Below, in pieces: positions 16,258 to 61,442 of a stretch of 64,000 bases of DNA. The notes beneath the pieces are model-generated. The model was given only the letters and a program-made list of their open reading frames with translations, did not search any database and was not told the origin of the DNA. Made by a program: the position numbers and the translations under genes. The stretch's first letter is position 1. The number at the start of each line of letters is the position of its first letter. Source of the stretch: Escherichia phage 236Ecol005PP; sequence record PP434423.1; one strand, given 5' to 3'.

Positions 16258-16286
16258 ATGGGGACCTTTCGGTCCCCATATTTTTA
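16258..16286. terminator. hairpin terminator between convergent genes 54 and alt.-3
   Basis: GGGGACC-TTTC-GGTCCCC followed by T-run. Confidence 0.6.
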
Positions 16287-16574
16287 TTTACGGAATGAAA
16301 TAAAAGCAGCAACTGAAGCAACTAAACTGTCTTCAATATAAACTTCAATTTTTACCGGAGCTTCTGACTCAAATTTACCTGTTACTACACCTTGGAAAAT
16401 ACTTTCAGTCTGTTCTGGCTTTGAAAAATTTTCAGAAGGAAAAATTCCGAACTTTTTATCTGTTCCAAAAATTTTGATAAATTCATCATAAACTGCTTCA
16501 TTAAAAGCATTATCAGCAGGAATAACGCCTTCAACTACAAGTTCTTGACCTAAAAAGCGCAAAGAAGATTTCAT
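16284..16574 (-). CDS. alt.-3: hypothetical protein (T4 alt.-3 position)
   Basis: 96-aa ORF downstream of an early-type promoter. Confidence 0.55.
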   Translation of the reverse strand: MKSSLRFLGQELVVEGVIPADNAFNEAVYDEFIKIFGTDKKFGIFPSENFSKPEQTESIFQGVVTGKFESEAPVKIEVYIEDSLVASVAAFISFRK

Positions 16575-16582
16575 TTTGTGTT

Positions 16583-16635
16583 CCTCATGTTATGTCAGTA
16601 AGATTACTATAACACAACATGAGGGACTTGTAAAC
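16583..16635 (-). promoter_or_regulatory. T4-type early promoter (GTTTACA, 17 nt, TATAGT) with leader hairpin
   Basis: sequence motif; near-identical copy at 30438-30490 upstream of alc. Confidence 0.55.
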
Positions 16636-16810
16636 TACATTTTGAACTTTTTAGTACGCGTAATAGGCATGCGTCGATTTTATACTGTTTCATTGTTTGA
16701 AGAGCAGTATCAAAAACAGCATTAATGACACCAATTGGATTTCCGCCCAAGTTTTTAAGCTTAACTAATGATAGTTTCTCATTAACACCTATCATTACGA
16801 TATGCATCAT
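16607..16810 (-). CDS. alt.-2: truncated Alt-like fragment (matches Alt residues about 64-120)
   Basis: 67-aa ORF with clear similarity to the alt N-terminal region of this same window. Confidence 0.55.
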   Translation of the reverse strand: MMHIVMIGVNEKLSLVKLKNLGGNPIGVINAVFDTALQTMKQYKIDACLLRVLKSSKCSLQVPHVVL

Positions 16811-16992
16811 TTTATCGCCCGGCTTAACGTTTTATTCGTATCACCGCCAGAGGTGTATGTACAAAATCTAAATCCAGGAAGCACACTTTCTTCACCGGCT
16901 TGAATAGCAAAAATTTGAGGTATTTTATGCTTAGGATTTAAGTTAACAACCGGCGCCGAAGCGCCGTCAAATAATTCTGTAATAAGTTCCAT
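16807..16992 (-). CDS. alt.-1: truncated Alt-like fragment (matches Alt residues about 2-57)
   Basis: 61-aa ORF beginning MELITELFD, the same N-terminus as alt. Confidence 0.55.
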   Translation of the reverse strand: MELITELFDGASAPVVNLNPKHKIPQIFAIQAGEESVLPGFRFCTYTSGGDTNKTLSRAIK

Positions 16993-19067: not shown

Positions 19068-19075
19068 TATTTATA
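19068..19075 (-). promoter_or_regulatory. late promoter TATAAATA for alt
   Basis: exact motif on minus strand about 21 nt upstream of alt start. Confidence 0.55.
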
Positions 19076-23484: not shown

Positions 23485-23817
23485 TTATTTTACTACTTTC
23501 CATTGCTGCATGTCAAGTTTACCAACTTTTTTCATCTTCTCAATTAAGCGTTCGACACGTTGGCGAGCTGTAACATAATACCATTCACCCAATTCATTTT
23601 GTTCAATTTTTCCAACGATTACTGTATTCAATTCATAAATCCAACCAGTAAAGAAATTATGAACTTGAATTGTAAAGGTGAAATCTGTTCCCATACCTTC
23701 TGTTGTTTCTACTTCAATAATATCACCTTCAACTGCCATTAAGAACCACATAGTTTCATCATATTTACCATTGAAGCATTTAATTTTAACTGTAGCGTTC
23801 AGATTAATCGTTTTCAT
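23485..23817 (-). CDS. 30.8: hypothetical protein
   Basis: 110-aa ORF. Confidence 0.55.
   Translation of the reverse strand: MKTINLNATVKIKCFNGKYDETMWFLMAVEGDIIEVETTEGMGTDFTFTIQVHNFFTGWIYELNTVIVGKIEQNELGEWYYVTARQRVERLIEKMKKVGKLDMQQWKVVK

Positions 23818-27713: not shown

Positions 27714-27714
<1 letters not shown>
27517..27714 (-). CDS. cd.5: hypothetical protein
   Basis: 65-aa ORF. Confidence 0.5.
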
Positions 27715-29058
<1,344 letters not shown>

Positions 29059-29585: not shown

Positions 29586-29935
29586 TTAGAAAGGTCCTGG
29601 ATGTCTTCTGCGAACTTGTTGAAGGAGTTGTTGATTTGTTTTTCAACCAATCCTGGCTTATGAGCCACCACATCCGCCTTCTTTGCGTCTTTGCGCAGTT
29701 TTTCATTTTCACGCTCAATAGCAGCAATTGCCTCACGATTTTTATTATTCATCGCATCAATATAATTATACTGAATTCGCAAATTATTTAATGCTAAAGC
29801 GTTTTCATTGGCCGTTTTTGTAATTTCTACAACAGACGTTTCTAATCTTTCAATTTTACTTTTTAAAATTAAAGAAGTTCCGCCCAATGCAATTACAATT
29901 AATAGCAAGCCTGCTGTCGTATTACTTAATTGCAT
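29582..29935 (-). CDS. i-spanin candidate (N-terminal TMD plus coiled coil)
   Basis: N-terminal hydrophobic helix then charged helical region; 4-nt overlap with the lipoprotein gene. Confidence 0.6.
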   Translation of the reverse strand: MQLSNTTAGLLLIVIALGGTSLILKSKIERLETSVVEITKTANENALALNNLRIQYNYIDAMNNKNREAIAAIERENEKLRKDAKKADVVAHKPGLVEKQINNSFNKFAEDIQDLSK

Positions 29936-30432
29936 AAAGTTTTAATAACCTCTATAATATCGTCTTGAGAAAGACCGTTAATTAAAATATGATGTTCAGC
30001 CGGAGATTTAGAAATTTTAAAGCATGCCTCAACATCTTCTGCCATATCTGATGCGCTACGATTTGGATTACTAATTCCAAGACGATGTTTTCCCGTCAAA
30101 GGATTAACGATGATATAGCATTTACAGTTATTAATATGAACATTAGGTTGAGTCTGATTAATGAACACATCACAATCATATTTCGCAAGCTGATTTTCTA
30201 AAAAGACTTTCATCTCCTCAACTGCATCAGGAAGCATATCACGGGCTTGCTCAAGACGACGATTTCGATATTCTTTAATGGTCGTTTTCCGCTTGACTTG
30301 CTTAGCTAAATCTTTCTTAAGATCGGTGATATATCCAACTCGACGATTTCCTTTAAACACAGAAATCCCATCTGTAGTATCACCGTATGCTTCAACGACC
30401 ATTTCAGTAGTAATAAGCTGTAAATCCATCAT
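29926..30432 (-). CDS. alc: Alc, host transcription termination/unfolding protein
   Basis: 167/168-aa ORF, synteny between spanins and rnlA. Confidence 0.8.
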   Translation of the reverse strand: MMDLQLITTEMVVEAYGDTTDGISVFKGNRRVGYITDLKKDLAKQVKRKTTIKEYRNRRLEQARDMLPDAVEEMKVFLENQLAKYDCDVFINQTQPNVHINNCKCYIIVNPLTGKHRLGISNPNRSASDMAEDVEACFKISKSPAEHHILINGLSQDDIIEVIKTLCN

Positions 30433-30437
30433 AAAGT

Positions 30438-30490
30438 CCTCATGTTATGTCAGTAAGACTACTGTAACACAACACGAGGGACTTGTAAAC
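30438..30490 (-). promoter_or_regulatory. early promoter with leader hairpin upstream of alc
   Basis: GTTTACA, 17 nt, TACAGT; 53-nt element about 94 percent identical to 16583-16635. Confidence 0.5.
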
Positions 30491-30493
30491 AGC

Positions 30494-32081
<1,588 letters not shown>

Positions 32082-32109
32082 AATAAAATGGGCCCTTGCG
32101 GCCCACTCC

Positions 32110-33279
32110 TTAAAAATATTTTTTAAAACTCATCATAACTTTATCATCAACATCATTATCAATCTGTGCTACAAGGTAAGATGAAAGTTCTACTTCTTGT
32201 GGCGCGGATTGAACATTATCAGAATTAAGATATTCACGAATCCAAGGATATGGATGTTTAACCGGAGCATCAGTAATTGGGCATGGAAGACCACACTGTT
32301 TCATACGAGATACAGTTAAGTAATCAATAAAGCTCCACATGCTATTTGTATTTAATCCAGGAACATCGCCATCTTTAAATAAATGAACTGCCCAATCTTT
32401 TTCTTGGCGGTTAACTTCCATGAAAATATCAACTGCTTCTTGTTCACACTCTTGAGCAATTTTAACCCATTCATCGCCATCAGTACCGGATTGAAGTTGA
32501 CGAATAATATATTGAGTGCCTTTAAGGTGAAGCTGCTCATCACGAGCAATGAACTTCATAATCTTGGCATTACCTTCCATGATTTCCATGTTTTTGTGGA
32601 AGTTAAATGTACAGGCGAAAGATACATAAAAACGAATAGCTTCCAATGCGTTGATTACATGAAGGCAAAGATAAAGAGATTTCATTAGTGCTCGTTTAGT
32701 GCATTCAACAACTTTGCCTAGCTCTTCTTTACGAAATCCTTCTGATAAAATTCCTTCATAATCTTCAACCGCATTCTGATATTCACGAGTCTTAACTAGA
32801 ACATCATCGTAATAGCGACCAATGGACTCGGCACGTTTCATGATAGCTTTATCTAATACAATCTCATCAAACACTTTTGACGGATCAGTATAAAGATTTC
32901 GCATAATATGAGTGTATGAACGGCTGTGAATAGTTTCACTAAAAGTCCATGTAGCAACCCATGTATCAAGGCTTGGGTCTGAAATTAATGACATAAGTAC
33001 AGCAGACGGTGCACGACCCTGAATGCTATCTAGAAGTGATTGATACTTCAGGTTATTAGTAAAAATATCTTGCTGATACTGAGGAAGCTTGTTAAATTGT
33101 GCAGCATCCATCATCAAGTTTACTTCTTCCGGACGCCAGAAAAATGACAACTGCTTTTCGGTTAAATCTTCAAAAACTTTATGGCGTTGAATATCATAAC
33201 GCGCAATACCAAGACCTGAACCGAAGAACATAGGTTCTTTTAAAACATCAACTGGATTTGTATTAAAAACTGTAGACAT
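32110..33279 (-). CDS. nrdB: ribonucleotide reductase beta subunit, uninterrupted
   Basis: 389-aa continuous ORF with di-iron/tyrosyl radical motifs; no intron. Confidence 0.9.
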   Translation of the reverse strand: MSTVFNTNPVDVLKEPMFFGSGLGIARYDIQRHKVFEDLTEKQLSFFWRPEEVNLMMDAAQFNKLPQYQQDIFTNNLKYQSLLDSIQGRAPSAVLMSLISDPSLDTWVATWTFSETIHSRSYTHIMRNLYTDPSKVFDEIVLDKAIMKRAESIGRYYDDVLVKTREYQNAVEDYEGILSEGFRKEELGKVVECTKRALMKSLYLCLHVINALEAIRFYVSFACTFNFHKNMEIMEGNAKIMKFIARDEQLHLKGTQYIIRQLQSGTDGDEWVKIAQECEQEAVDIFMEVNRQEKDWAVHLFKDGDVPGLNTNSMWSFIDYLTVSRMKQCGLPCPITDAPVKHPYPWIREYLNSDNVQSAPQEVELSSYLVAQIDNDVDDKVMMSFKKYF

Positions 33280-38187: not shown

Positions 38188-38441
38188 CATTATGTTCAGA
38201 TAAGGTCGTTAATCTTATCCCGGAATTATATCCAGCTGCATGTCACCATACAGATCAGACTATATCTCCATCTTGATGAAGCAAGATGTCTATCGTTTCG
38301 AGTCACTTGACCCTACTCCCCAAAGGGATAGTCGTTAGGCATTTAGTTCAAAAGAACATTTAGCACGGGATTGTCTACTAGAGAGGTTCCCCGTTTAGAT
38401 AGATTACAAGTATAAGTCACCTTATACTCAGGCCTCAATTA
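38188..38441 (-). ncRNA. group I self-splicing intron in td, lacking any homing-endonuclease ORF
   Basis: starts TAATTGAGGCCTGAG... and ends ...CTGAACATAATG like the T4 td intron core; exon 1 ORF stops at the intron-initial TAA. Confidence 0.85.
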
Positions 38442-38990
38442 ACCCAAGAAAACATCTACACTTCTTTGGTACCATTGTAAATCAAGATAACCATTACGCA
38501 CATTAAACTGATAGAACATATGACAGGGCGGTAATGCCATTTGATTGATTTCAGCTGGATTCCATGCTGAAACGATTTGACGTCGATCAGTTGGTAATTT
38601 TTTAATACGATCAATAGTTTCAACTAATTGATCCACACCACCGAAATCACGCCATTGTTTACCGTATATAGGACCAAGTTCACCACTATGATATCCTAGG
38701 TCTTTAGCCTGGTTTTCATAGTTATCGTCCCAAATAGTTTTACCTTGAATAAGACTACCATGAGTGCGAAGACGTAAATCATTAACATTGGTAGAACCGG
38801 AAATAAACCATAGAAGCTCAGCAATGCAAGCTTTCCAAGCGAGCTTCTTAGTCGTTACTGCAGGAAAACCTTTAGTTAAATCCCAACGTAATTTAGTACC
38901 GAACAAAGCAATTGTTCCTGTGCCTGTTCGGTCATCGGTTTCATAGCCATTTTCAAAAATGTCTTTAATTAAATCTTGGTATTGTTTCAT
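38442..38990 (-). CDS. td: thymidylate synthase, exon 1
   Basis: N-terminal TS sequence including the catalytic PPCH motif. Confidence 0.9.
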
Positions 38991-61284: not shown

Positions 61285-61384
61285 AGTAAGCGTTTAATAC
61301 ATCAATCATTAAAACGATTGGGAATATACTCAAAACTACTAATATTATAACTACATTCCATATAGCTTTAACAATCTTTTTCAT
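61271..61384 (-). CDS. small membrane peptide (ndd.x series)
   Basis: ORF-track ORF trimmed to the ATG with GGAGG RBS (37 aa) downstream of an early promoter. Confidence 0.4.
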   Translation of the reverse strand: MKKIVKAIWNVVIILVVLSIFPIVLMIDVLNAYFGFM

Positions 61385-61412: not shown

Positions 61413-61442
61413 ATAATACCACAGAGGAACAGTCTTGTAAAC
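61413..61442 (-). promoter_or_regulatory. T4-type early promoter
   Basis: GTTTACA, 17 nt, TGgTATTAT. Confidence 0.45.

What the first reader, a model, noticed from the sequence alone, without database searches (positions are those of the whole stretch)
30438..30490. Repeated early-promoter plus stem-loop module, copy 2 (upstream of alc)
Partner of the 16583-16635 element with the same architecture and about 94 percent identity, placed between rnlA and alc.
Basis: seen in the sequence. Interest (0 to 1): 0.4.

Follow-up and report, generated by a model that had tools for sequence, protein, structure and literature searches.

The report
Duplicated early promoter with ribosome-site-masking hairpin
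A 54-base control cassette in a T4-like phage, present once before the alc gene and once before alt.-3, combines a strong early promoter with a hairpin that probably hides the gene's ribosome-binding site in longer transcripts coming from upstream; it is real, but it belongs to kinds of phage control element that are already known.

Summary
On the minus strand, 30437-30490 (between rnlA and alc) and 16582-16635 (before alt.-3) match at 51 of 54 bases. Ten other clear early promoters in the window match at only 20-30 of 54, so the similarity goes well beyond promoter consensus.

The window is a Tequatrovirus. All 498 full-length matching phage records have exactly these two copies.

The cassette holds a T4-type early promoter (GTTTACA, 17-nt spacer, TGn, TACAGT). 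A long hairpin pairs the promoter spacer with the Shine-Dalgarno sequence (GAGG). The predicted transcription start lies at the top of the hairpin, so the promoter's own transcripts lack the 5' arm.

Six other genera have the same layout before alc with different stem sequences. Matching arms pair at -19.8 kcal/mol against -10.1 for swapped arms, and the true pairing is the best of 5040 permutations. The hairpin is therefore under selection, and G-U pairs favour the sense RNA. Neither copy has a terminator-type U tract.

Three other genera have an ordinary early promoter before alt.-3, so the alt.-3 copy was probably derived from the alc cassette.

Best reading: translation is masked in read-through transcripts. 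This mirrors T4 e/soc/49/I-TevI with early timing, in a PeSL-like cassette. No function was tested by experiment.

The parts
30437..30490 (-). Copy 2 of the 54-nt cassette (GTTTAC...GAGGA), between rnlA and alc
   Evidence: 51 of 54 identical to 16582-16635. Present, with its partner, in every full-length Tequatrovirus record that matched: 997 places in 499 records.
30484..30489 (-). -35 hexamer TTTACA, part of the T4-type GTTTAC(A) motif at 30485-30490
   Evidence: Promoter scan. GTTTACA is invariant upstream of alc in 7 genera.
30461..30469 (-). Extended -10: TGn (30467-30469) plus TACAGT (30461-30466), 17 nt after the -35
   Evidence: 17-nt spacer, TG present. Annotated 'predicted early promoter' at the same place in phage fPS-90.
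30454..30454 (-). Predicted transcription start (A, 7 nt after the -10), on the 3' side of the apical stem next to the loop. Inferred, not mapped.
   Evidence: Based on spacing only (sequence). No 5'-end data were available.
30434..30484 (-). Hairpin. The 5' arm (30467-30484) is the promoter spacer. The apical stem (30460-30464 paired with 30451-30455) and its loop (30456-30459) cover the -10 and the start site. The 3' arm (30434-30455) is the 5' UTR.
   Evidence: Folds: -25.7 to -28.6 kcal/mol, z about -5. Sense RNA is much more stable than antisense (-28.6 against -17.9). Stems covary across genera.
30437..30441 (-). Shine-Dalgarno GAGGA of alc, fully paired with CCUC of the promoter spacer in the long-transcript fold
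   Evidence: Probability that the Shine-Dalgarno sequence pairs with the first 30 nt = 1.00.
29926..30432 (-). alc (inhibitor of host transcription), the gene served by copy 2. The T4 annotation starts at the second ATG, 30429.
   Evidence: ORF, T4 annotation, tblastn.
30494..31618 (-). rnlA (RNA ligase 1). Its stop codon lies 3 nt before the cassette, and its transcripts would carry the masked form of the alc ribosome site.
   Evidence: No terminator-like site anywhere in 29800-32200.
16582..16635 (-). Copy 1 of the cassette: -35 at 16629-16634, -10 TATAGT at 16606-16611, Shine-Dalgarno at 16582-16586
16284..16574 (-). alt.-3 (96 aa), the gene served by copy 1
   Evidence: ORF, T4 annotation.
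19068..19075 (-). Late-promoter motif TATAAATA just upstream of alt. It is the likely source of late read-through transcripts that reach copy 1.
   Evidence: No minus-strand terminator between alt and alt.-3.
16258..16279 (.). Bidirectional terminator-like hairpin that closes the alt / alt.-3 transcription unit
   Evidence: Annotated as a terminator on both strands in fPS-90.

Best explanation
The element is a compact regulatory cassette of a T4-like phage (Tequatrovirus).

It contains a strong host-sigma-70 early promoter (GTTTACA, 17-nt spacer, TGn, TACAGT) and the 5' UTR and ribosome-binding site of the downstream gene.

The promoter spacer carries an anti-Shine-Dalgarno stretch (CCCUC...). 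This stretch is complementary to the Shine-Dalgarno region about 35 nt downstream.

In transcripts that enter from upstream, both arms are present. These are rnlA transcripts for alc, and late alt transcripts for alt.-3. A hairpin of -23 to -29 kcal/mol then buries the Shine-Dalgarno sequence, so the gene is translated poorly or not at all.

Transcripts that start at the cassette's own promoter begin at the top of the hairpin and lack the 5' arm. They should have an essentially open ribosome site.

The net effect would be to tie synthesis of Alc and Alt.-3 to the short period when early promoters fire. This is the mirror image of the T4 e/soc/49/I-TevI design.

The alc copy is the ancestral one. 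In the Tequatrovirus lineage, the stretch from the -35 to the Shine-Dalgarno sequence was copied onto the alt.-3 promoter, probably by ectopic recombination or gene conversion between two early-promoter cassettes.

Shown here: the repeat, the promoter motifs, the hairpin and its covariation, and the lack of a terminator tail. Inferred: the start site, the translational effect, the timing logic, and the direction and mechanism of copying.
For: Repeat:
- 51 of 54 identical, against 16-30 of 54 for other promoter-like sites in the window.

Promoter:
-; annotated as a predicted early promoter in fPS-90.
- T4 early promoters are UP/-35/TGn/-10 promoters (PMC2988021).

Hairpin:
- z = -4.3 to -5.2 as sense RNA. 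Antisense is 2-11 kcal/mol weaker because of G-U pairs.
- The Shine-Dalgarno sequence is paired with probability 1.00.
- Transcripts from the cassette's own promoter fold at only -3 to -4 kcal/mol.

Conservation of the layout, not the sequence:
- Dhakavirus, Winklervirus, Gelderlandvirus, Karamvirus, Jiaodavirus and Bragavirus all have GTTTACA, then a 5' arm in the spacer, the -10 in the loop, and the Shine-Dalgarno sequence in the 3' arm upstream of alc.
- Each of these folds with z = -3.2 to -5.7.
- Arm-swap test: matching arms -19.8 kcal/mol against -10.1 for non-matching arms. The matching partner ranks first in 6 of 7 genera, and the true pairing is the best of 5040 permutations.

Variation within the genus:
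- 5'-arm changes C11T, C15T and G16A all keep pairing as U-G or A-U. C13T falls at the bulged or alternatively paired position.
- Pair 27-40 occurs as U-G, C-G and U-A.
- The transcribed 3' arm is almost invariant.

Other points:
- No terminator-like site at either copy.
- Upstream transcription is plausible. The rnlA stop is 3 nt before the cassette, and a late-promoter motif precedes alt with no terminator before alt.-3.
- Direction of copying: the alt.-3 promoter in Jiaodavirus, Karamvirus and Winklervirus is an ordinary early promoter without the masking hairpin.
- Known precedent for the mechanism: e, soc, 49 and I-TevI (PMC3014915).
Against: - No experimental data were available on the 5' ends, or on translation from long versus short transcripts. 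The start site is inferred from spacing alone.
- A ribosome terminating at the rnlA stop codon, 9 nt before the 5' arm (13 nt before the CCCUC stretch), could open the base of the stem. Masking in long transcripts may therefore be partial, or may act as translational coupling.
- In copy 1 of this window, the alt.-2 remnant ORF reads through the 5' arm. If it is translated, it would melt the hairpin.
- For alt.-3, the own-promoter transcript still shows weak pairing of the Shine-Dalgarno sequence with the coding region (probability unpaired 0.12, but only -4.2 kcal/mol).
- A null that shuffled only the spacer still gave pairing of at least 0.9 in 21-27% of trials. C/U-rich composition alone therefore goes a long way, and that statistic is uninformative.
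- Some relatives lack the masking hairpin before alc (NHEP11, Providencia PSTCR6, Gaprivervirus, Acinetobacter, Aeromonas and Cronobacter phages). It is therefore not indispensable.
Confidence: 0.6

Rival explanations
1. It is a PeSL in the sense of Arbiol and Comeau. The stem-loop would terminate or attenuate transcription coming from the upstream gene, so insulating transcription units. The conserved cassette would mainly serve as a homology patch for modular shuffling of the adjacent genes.
For: - The composition matches the published description: AT-rich lead, -35, -10, stem-loop, Shine-Dalgarno sequence, start codon (PMC2839356 section 13; PMC4122927 Fig. 3 legend).
- Stem-loops between the -35 and -10, or overlapping the -10, are listed PeSL subclasses.
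- Copy 1 lies next to a presence/absence polymorphism: a full second alt paralog in T2 against a remnant in T4 and in this window.
- The alt.-3 copy looks like the product of recombination between promoter cassettes.
- T4 recombination needs only about 50 bp of homology (cited in PMC2839356).
Against: - No U tract follows the stem in either copy or in the six other genera, and the terminator scan finds nothing there.
- The stem always ends on the Shine-Dalgarno sequence, which a terminator does not need.
- Both copies sit at the same two loci in every full-length record that matched, so there is no sign of ongoing mobility.
- The deletion next to copy 1 ends 10-18 nt upstream of the repeat at a 9-nt microhomology, not within it.
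- PeSLs of the PST/T4 pair were described with the stem-loop upstream of the promoter (PMC4122927).
Confidence: 0.17
2. It is a translational-coupling device. In long transcripts, the hairpin keeps the alc ribosome site closed unless a ribosome terminating at the rnlA stop codon, 3 nt before the cassette, melts the base of the stem. Alc would then be made from read-through mRNA in proportion to rnlA translation, rather than being silenced.
For: - The rnlA stop codon lies 0-5 nt before GTTTAC in six of the seven genera (9 nt before it in Bragavirus).
- The Shine-Dalgarno partner is at the very base of the 5' arm, 7-13 nt further on, which is within reach of a terminating ribosome.
Against: - At the alt.-3 copy the upstream stop position is not conserved. 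It is 17 nt before the cassette in T2 and inside the cassette in T4 and in this window.
- The hairpin is long (up to 22 bp). A terminating ribosome would open only a few base pairs.
- This reading does not explain why a promoter sits inside the hairpin.
Confidence: 0.12
3. It is an RNA processing or stability element. The hairpin would form the protected 3' end of rnlA and alt messages after cleavage, or would be a double-strand-specific RNase site. Inclusion of the Shine-Dalgarno sequence would be incidental.
For: It is a strong sense-strand RNA hairpin placed directly after a stop codon. T4 early mRNAs are heavily processed (PMC3014915).
Against: - The 3' arm contains the Shine-Dalgarno sequence in all seven genera, despite complete turnover of the rest of the stem.
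- Stems in other genera are only 9-15 bp, which from general knowledge is short for RNase III.
- No Rfam family matches.
Confidence: 0.07
4. It acts at the DNA level. The inverted repeat would be an operator for a dimeric DNA-binding protein, or a cruciform that modulates promoter firing.
For: The inverted repeat spans the promoter core. With DNA energy parameters it still folds better than shuffled sequences (z = -3.0 to -4.3).
Against: - The arm sequences are not conserved between genera but covary, which is the opposite of what a protein-binding site would show.
- G-T positions make the two strands unequal: -28.6 against -17.9 kcal/mol as RNA, and -13.1 against -10.1 as DNA.
- Arm spacing and loop length vary.
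Confidence: 0.03
5. It is not a distinct feature. The two sites would resemble each other only because all T4 early promoters and ribosome sites share a long consensus.
For: T4 early promoter regions do share extended consensus. Other promoter-like sites in the window match the cassette at 16-30 of 54 positions.
Against: 51 of 54 identity, including the non-consensus spacer and the 5' UTR. No matches in shuffled sequence. blastn E = 2e-19 within the window.
Confidence: 0.01

Closest known systems
Promoter-inside-hairpin translational control of T4 genes e, soc, 49 and I-TevI (also mobE of phage Aeh1)
   Same: The Shine-Dalgarno sequence is buried in a helix in transcripts coming from upstream. 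[quoted passage not shown] The geometry here is the same.
   Different: The known cases use late promoters (TATAAATA) and restrict translation to late times. Here the internal promoter is a sigma-70 early promoter, so the predicted effect is early-only translation. The known cases were tested by experiment, and this one was not.
PeSL (promoter-early stem-loop) regulatory cassettes of T4-like phages (Arbiol et al. 2010, PMC2839356; Comeau et al. 2014, PMC4122927)
   Same: A short intergenic cassette with an early promoter, a stem-loop, a Shine-Dalgarno sequence and a start codon, repeated within a genome. The cassette appears to have been copied from one gene to another, and one copy lies next to an indel polymorphism.
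   Different: PeSL stem-loops were characterised as terminators or attenuators. In RB49/phi1 they are G/C-rich, and in PST/T4 they lie upstream of the promoter. PeSLs are numerous (about 50 per genome) and cluster before ORFans in hyperplastic regions. Here there are two near-identical copies at fixed loci, no terminator tail, and a stem whose conserved feature is pairing with the Shine-Dalgarno sequence.
Homology boxes at the T-even internal-protein loci (Repoila et al. 1994, as described in PMC2839356)
   Same: Conserved T4-type early-promoter sequences with AT-rich stem-loops flank genes and are proposed as sites of exchange.
   Different: That comparison rests only on the description in PMC2839356. 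Those boxes flank internal-protein genes, and no masking of the Shine-Dalgarno sequence was described.
Rho-independent terminators
   Same: A stable RNA hairpin directly after a stop codon.
   Different: There is no U-rich tail, and the consensus scan is negative at both copies.

Membership tests
T4-type early (sigma-70) promoter | -35 GTTTAC/TTTACA, 17-nt spacer, TGn, and a -10 of form TAnnnT | tested here: met
   (TTTACA, 17 nt, TACAGT or TATAGT, TG present). GTTTACA is invariant in 7 genera.
T4-type early (sigma-70) promoter | A/T-rich UP-like region at -40 to -60 | tested here: inconclusive
   Copy 1 has AAAAAGTTCAAAATGTA. Copy 2 has AAAAAATTTATCCC inside the end of rnlA. No quantitative test was done.
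T4-type early (sigma-70) promoter | Transcripts start there within the first minutes of infection | not testable with these tools
   Only a 'predicted early promoter' annotation in the fPS-90 record.
Promoter-inside-hairpin translational control (T4 e/soc/49/I-TevI type) | The Shine-Dalgarno sequence and/or AUG is sequestered in a stable helix in upstream-initiated transcripts | tested here: met
   Predicted only. Pairing probability of the Shine-Dalgarno sequence is 1.00, at -23 to -29 kcal/mol. Covariation supports the helix.
Promoter-inside-hairpin translational control (T4 e/soc/49/I-TevI type) | A proximal promoter gives transcripts that lack the 5' strand of the helix | tested here: met
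   By spacing, the -10 lies at the top of the hairpin and the predicted start is at cassette position 37, after the 5' arm. Not mapped by experiment.
Promoter-inside-hairpin translational control (T4 e/soc/49/I-TevI type) | The internal promoter is a late promoter (TATAAATA) | tested here: not met
   No TATAAATA in the cassette. The promoter is of the early type.
Promoter-inside-hairpin translational control (T4 e/soc/49/I-TevI type) | Demonstrated difference in translation between long and short transcripts | not testable with these tools
   Needs reporter, toeprint or ribosome-profiling experiments.
PeSL cassette | Early promoter plus stable stem-loop plus Shine-Dalgarno sequence and start codon in one short intergenic unit | tested here: met
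   Definition in PMC2839356 section 13.
PeSL cassette | The stem-loop works as a terminator or attenuator of upstream transcription | tested here: inconclusive
   No U tract, and the terminator scan is negative. Attenuation without a U tract cannot be excluded by computation.
PeSL cassette | Many copies, concentrated in hyperplastic regions upstream of ORFans | tested here: not met
   Exactly two copies of this sequence per genome, at fixed loci. One of them precedes the conserved gene alc.
PeSL cassette | Associated with insertions, deletions or replacements between close relatives | tested here: inconclusive
   The alt.-3 promoter appears to have been replaced by the alc cassette. An indel lies next to copy 1, but its junction is a 9-nt microhomology outside the repeat.
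Intrinsic terminator | G+C-rich hairpin followed by a U run | tested here: not met
   The tails are CUUUAUGAUG and AACACAAAAUG.
Any Rfam RNA family | Covariance-model match | tested here: not met
   No hit at gathering threshold in the window, and none at E <= 1 in 30300-30650.

The most novel reading that the evidence does not exclude
T4-like phages may use an early-only translational gate. An anti-Shine-Dalgarno stretch is built into the spacer of an early promoter. Any later read-through message then carries a closed ribosome site, and only the promoter's own immediate-early transcripts are translated. This is the temporal inverse of the classical gene e/soc/49/I-TevI switch.

The gate has been kept upstream of alc in at least seven genera while the stem sequence turned over completely. 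In Tequatrovirus it was copied whole onto alt.-3, which would put Alc and Alt.-3 under the same control.

Two more promoters in this window (61442 and 23874, minus strand) show the same design with unrelated stems, so it may be a general principle of T-even early gene expression.
Probability: 0.4. Interest if true: 0.5.

Novelty: new member of a known kind. Interest (0 to 1): 0.35.

Why it matters
The finding is of modest importance.

If the masking model holds, it would explain how a densely packed phage genome with few terminators can keep some proteins strictly immediate-early although later transcripts run through their genes. Alc is the inhibitor of host transcription. Alt.-3 is a small protein recently linked to escape from the CmdTAC defence system (PMC11618068).

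It would also add an early-promoter counterpart to a textbook T4 translational switch.

The alt.-3 copy gives a clean example of a promoter-to-ribosome-site cassette being transplanted between genes. This is the type of event proposed for PeSL-mediated shuffling.

For genome annotation, the two 54-bp direct repeats lie 13.9 kb apart. They are a potential substrate for recombination across a block that holds genes 30, 31, cd and pseT.

Tried and rejected
- Shuffling only the promoter spacer as a null for Shine-Dalgarno pairing was uninformative. 21-27% of shuffles still paired at 0.9 or more, because the C/U-rich composition and the fixed inner stem are kept. I relied instead on whole-sequence dinucleotide shuffles, on natural promoters as controls and on the arm-swap test.
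- MAFFT plus RNAalifold on the seven alc leaders put the 3' arms out of register and gave a meaningless consensus of -1.6 kcal/mol. It was replaced by per-sequence folds indexed from the -35 and by the alignment-free arm-swap test.
- The IMG/VR pattern scan returned only 11 true copies among 23 hits; the rest were chance matches in unrelated contigs. It was not enough for a population analysis. The metagenome and bacterial-genome scans were not used.
- The idea that Jiaodavirus also keeps a matched alc/alt.-3 pair was rejected. Its two sites are 82% alike over 67 nt. However, the alt.-3 site lacks the hairpin and is no closer to its own genome's alc site than to promoters of other genera.
- The idea that the truncated alt duplicate (alt.-1/alt.-2) was cut by recombination within the cassette was rejected. 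The junction is a 9-nt microhomology 10-18 nt upstream.
- The T4 GenBank record as held has no promoter features. The 2003 T4 genome review is not in the library, and no paper in the library contains the cassette sequence in a phage context. Older print literature may still describe this promoter or hairpin.
- Terminator and Rfam readings were rejected.

Full report
**What is there**

Read on the minus strand, 30490 to 30437 is GTTTACAAGTCCCTCGTGTTGTGTTACAGTAGTCTTACTGACATAACATGAGGA. It starts 3 nt after the rnlA stop codon (TAA, 30496-30494). It ends 4 nt before the first ATG of alc, or 7 nt before the second.

A second copy lies at 16635 to 16582, in front of a 96-aa ORF. That ORF is the homologue of T4 alt.-3.

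The two copies are identical at 51 of 54 positions. The similarity begins exactly at the G of GTTTAC and stops at GAGGA, and the flanks are unrelated.

Searches allowing three mismatches, with the whole cassette or either half, find only these two sites, and none in 100 shuffled windows. A sensitive local blastn gives E = 2e-19 for the partner and nothing else below 0.046.

It fails. The thirteen other matches to a loose early-promoter pattern in the window share only 16-30 of 54 positions with the cassette, and the ten clear minus-strand GTTTAC promoters among them share 20-30.

**Where the window comes from**

The rnlA-alc stretch matches 497 phage records at 90-99% identity. All are T4-like phages of enterobacteria (Tequatrovirus), and the best match is 98.7%. 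T4 itself has the same gene order.

A 76-nt query around the cassette hits 499 records at 997 places, which is two per genome. The single exception is a 13-kb partial record.

In every genome I inspected, the two places are the alc and alt.-3 upstream regions. These were T4, T2, fPS-90, three IMG/VR genomes and the window. In T4 the two copies differ at one base.

**Anatomy**

- The -35 hexamer is TTTACA (30489-30484).
- A 17-nt spacer follows.
- TGn and the -10 hexamer TACAGT lie at 30469-30461. Copy 1 has TATAGT.
- This matches the description of T4 early promoters as UP/-35/TGn/-10 promoters (PMC2988021).
- The same site is annotated 'predicted early promoter' in the fPS-90 record.

The cassette is also a long imperfect inverted repeat.

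- As sense RNA it folds at -28.6 kcal/mol (copy 2) and -23.4 kcal/mol (copy 1), z = -5.2 and -4.3.
- The 5' arm is the promoter spacer (AAGUCC-CUCGUGUUGUGU).
- A small apical stem-loop carries the -10 and the expected start site.
- The 3' arm is the 5' UTR and ends with the Shine-Dalgarno sequence (ACAUAACAUGAGGACUU).
- GAGG is paired with probability 1.00.
- Several pairs are G-U, so the antisense strand folds much less well: -17.9 kcal/mol for copy 2. The same asymmetry holds with DNA parameters.
- A start 7 nt after the -10 (about 30454) would give a transcript that lacks the whole 5' arm. Such transcripts fold at only -3 to -4 kcal/mol.
- The start site is inferred from spacing. It was not mapped.

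**Comparative evidence**

A tblastn search with Alc found homologues in 1136 records, down to 33% identity. I fetched the region upstream of alc from thirteen phages outside Tequatrovirus.

Six of these genera have an rnlA-alc spacer of the same length, 61-64 nt from GTTTAC to ATG. They are Dhakavirus, Winklervirus, Gelderlandvirus, Karamvirus, Jiaodavirus and Bragavirus. All show the same layout:

- GTTTACA, followed by a 5' arm that starts 7-9 nt into the cassette.
- The -10 in the loop.
- A 3' arm that ends in GGAGA, GAGGA or GAGAGG.

The stem sequences differ. Examples are UCUCCGUUUAGUU/AACUAAACGGAGA, UCCUCAUUUCGUU/AACGAAAUGAGGA and ACCUCUCAUUUUU/GAAAAUGAGAGGU. Each folds with z = -3.2 to -5.7.

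An alignment-free arm-swap test supports covariation:

- Matching 5' and 3' arms pair at a mean of -19.8 kcal/mol.
- Non-matching arms pair at a mean of -10.1 kcal/mol.
- The matching arm is the best partner in 6 of 7 genera.
- The true assignment is the single best of all 5040 permutations.

This shows that pairing between the promoter spacer and the Shine-Dalgarno region has been maintained by selection.

The other relatives examined lack it:

- NHEP11 has only a small hairpin in the spacer.
- Providencia phage PSTCR6 has a hairpin around the -10 only.
- Gaprivervirus has an extra ORF in place of the cassette.
- The Acinetobacter, Aeromonas and Cronobacter phages have no such structure.

**Variation within Tequatrovirus**

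Variation within the genus points the same way.

- The consensus of the alc and alt.-3 copies is identical.
- Changes in the 5' arm (C11T, C15T, G16A) all keep pairing as U-G or A-U, and C13T falls at the bulged or alternatively paired position.
- Pair 27-40 occurs as U-G, C-G and U-A.
- The transcribed 3' arm is almost invariant.
- The same variants (A16, A29, A32) turn up at both loci in different phages. This suggests occasional exchange between the copies, but the sample of 17 sequences is too small to prove it.

**Which copy is original**

In Jiaodavirus, Karamvirus and Winklervirus, the alt.-3 homologue is preceded by an ordinary early promoter. That promoter has the common ACAAGGA...GTG spacer and no masking hairpin.

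The alc locus carries the hairpin in seven genera. The simplest history is therefore that the stretch from the -35 to the Shine-Dalgarno sequence was copied from alc onto the alt.-3 promoter in the Tequatrovirus ancestor. The shared consensus ends (GTTTAC and AUGAGGA) would have served as the edges of the exchange. This is an inference.

**What it most likely does**

In transcripts arriving from upstream, the ribosome site is closed. In transcripts from the cassette's own promoter, it is open.

Upstream transcription is plausible at both copies:

- No terminator-like site lies anywhere in 29800-32200.
- A late-promoter motif TATAAATA sits just before alt, at 19068-19075 on the minus strand.
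- No minus-strand terminator lies between alt and the bidirectional terminator after alt.-3, at 16258-16279 (also annotated).

Early promoters shut off within a few minutes (PMC3014915, PMC2988021). The arrangement would therefore confine Alc and Alt.-3 synthesis to the immediate-early period.

The mechanism itself is established for T4 e, soc, 49 and I-TevI. There a late promoter inside the hairpin frees the ribosome site (PMC3014915). Here the internal promoter is of the early type, so the timing is reversed.

I could find no description of this in the searchable literature. The older T4 literature and the 2003 genome review are not held.

**Rival explanations**

- PeSL terminator and recombination linker. 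This fits the composition and the cassette-transplant history (PMC2839356, PMC4122927). Against it: there is no U tract in any genus, both loci are fixed in every full-length matching record, and the indel next to copy 1 ends at a 9-nt microhomology outside the repeat.
- Translational coupling. This is a real alternative for alc, because the rnlA stop codon is 0-5 nt before GTTTAC in six of the seven genera (9 nt in Bragavirus). It does not carry over to alt.-3, where the position of the upstream stop varies.
- RNA 3'-end protection or processing. This does not explain why the Shine-Dalgarno sequence is always in the stem.
- A DNA operator or cruciform. This is contradicted by the covariation and by the strand asymmetry.
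- No Rfam family matches.

**A wider pattern in the window**

Eleven early promoters in the window have a recognisable Shine-Dalgarno sequence downstream.

- Four have that sequence fully paired to their own spacer: alc, alt.-3, and the promoters at 61442 and 23874 (minus strand), the last two with unrelated stems.
- Three more have a strong hairpin that encloses only the -10: 27043, 40293 and 23482.

The design therefore seems to recur, which fits the broad PeSL idea of early promoters combined with stem-loops.

**Verdict**

The finding is real and correctly described. It is a member of known kinds of phage regulatory element: an early-promoter/stem-loop cassette that works like the T4 promoter-in-hairpin translational switches. 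The extra points are modestly new but untested by experiment: masking of the Shine-Dalgarno sequence by the promoter spacer, cross-genus covariation, and alc-to-alt.-3 copying. Interest is moderate to low.

Noticed in passing
window 28055-28337 (inside the pseT ORF, 27714..28763, minus strand): A perfect, in-frame 141-bp tandem duplication (2.0 copies, 100% identical). It makes polynucleotide kinase 349 aa, against about 300 aa in T2 and T4. It could be a recent duplication or an assembly artefact.
   Followed up: partly
window 61442 and 23874 (minus strand; promoters upstream of a 37-aa ORF starting at 61384 and a 110-aa ORF starting at 23817): Two further early promoters whose -35/-10 spacer is complementary to their own Shine-Dalgarno sequence, with stems unrelated to the alc cassette (pairing probability 1.00; z = -6.1 and -2.1). 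The design therefore recurs.
   Followed up: partly
window 27043, 40293 and 23482 (minus strand): Early promoters with a strong hairpin that encloses only the -10 hexamer and leaves the Shine-Dalgarno sequence free (z = -2.5 to -4.7). This resembles PeSL subclasses in which the stem-loop overlaps the -10.
   Followed up: no
window 16607-16992 (alt.-1/alt.-2 remnants), compared with T2 locus L042:147-2204: T2 and UFV05 carry a full-length second alt paralog between alt and alt.-3. The window and T4 keep only nt 4-354 of it fused to nt 2045-2128, with a 9-nt overlap at the junction. This is a 1.69-kb microhomology deletion that ends 10-18 nt upstream of cassette copy 1.
   Followed up: yes
window 38236-38451 (minus strand) and 32110-33279 (minus strand): A group I intron (Rfam RF00028, 72.7 bits), probably the td intron. 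The nrdB ORF in this phage is uninterrupted (389 aa). From memory, T4 nrdB carries an intron, so this differs from T4.
   Followed up: no
L028 (phage VR7) 360-593 and L033 (phage TH44): In Gaprivervirus, the rnlA-alc spacer holds an extra 78-aa ORF (annotated as similar to Alc) in place of the promoter/hairpin cassette. Here alc follows without a recognisable GTTTAC promoter.
   Followed up: no
window 16284-16574 (alt.-3): Alt.-3 is otherwise uncharacterised. C-terminally extended variants of it let T4 escape the CmdTAC defence system (PMC11618068). The bidirectional terminator at 16258-16279 lies right after its stop codon.
   Followed up: no
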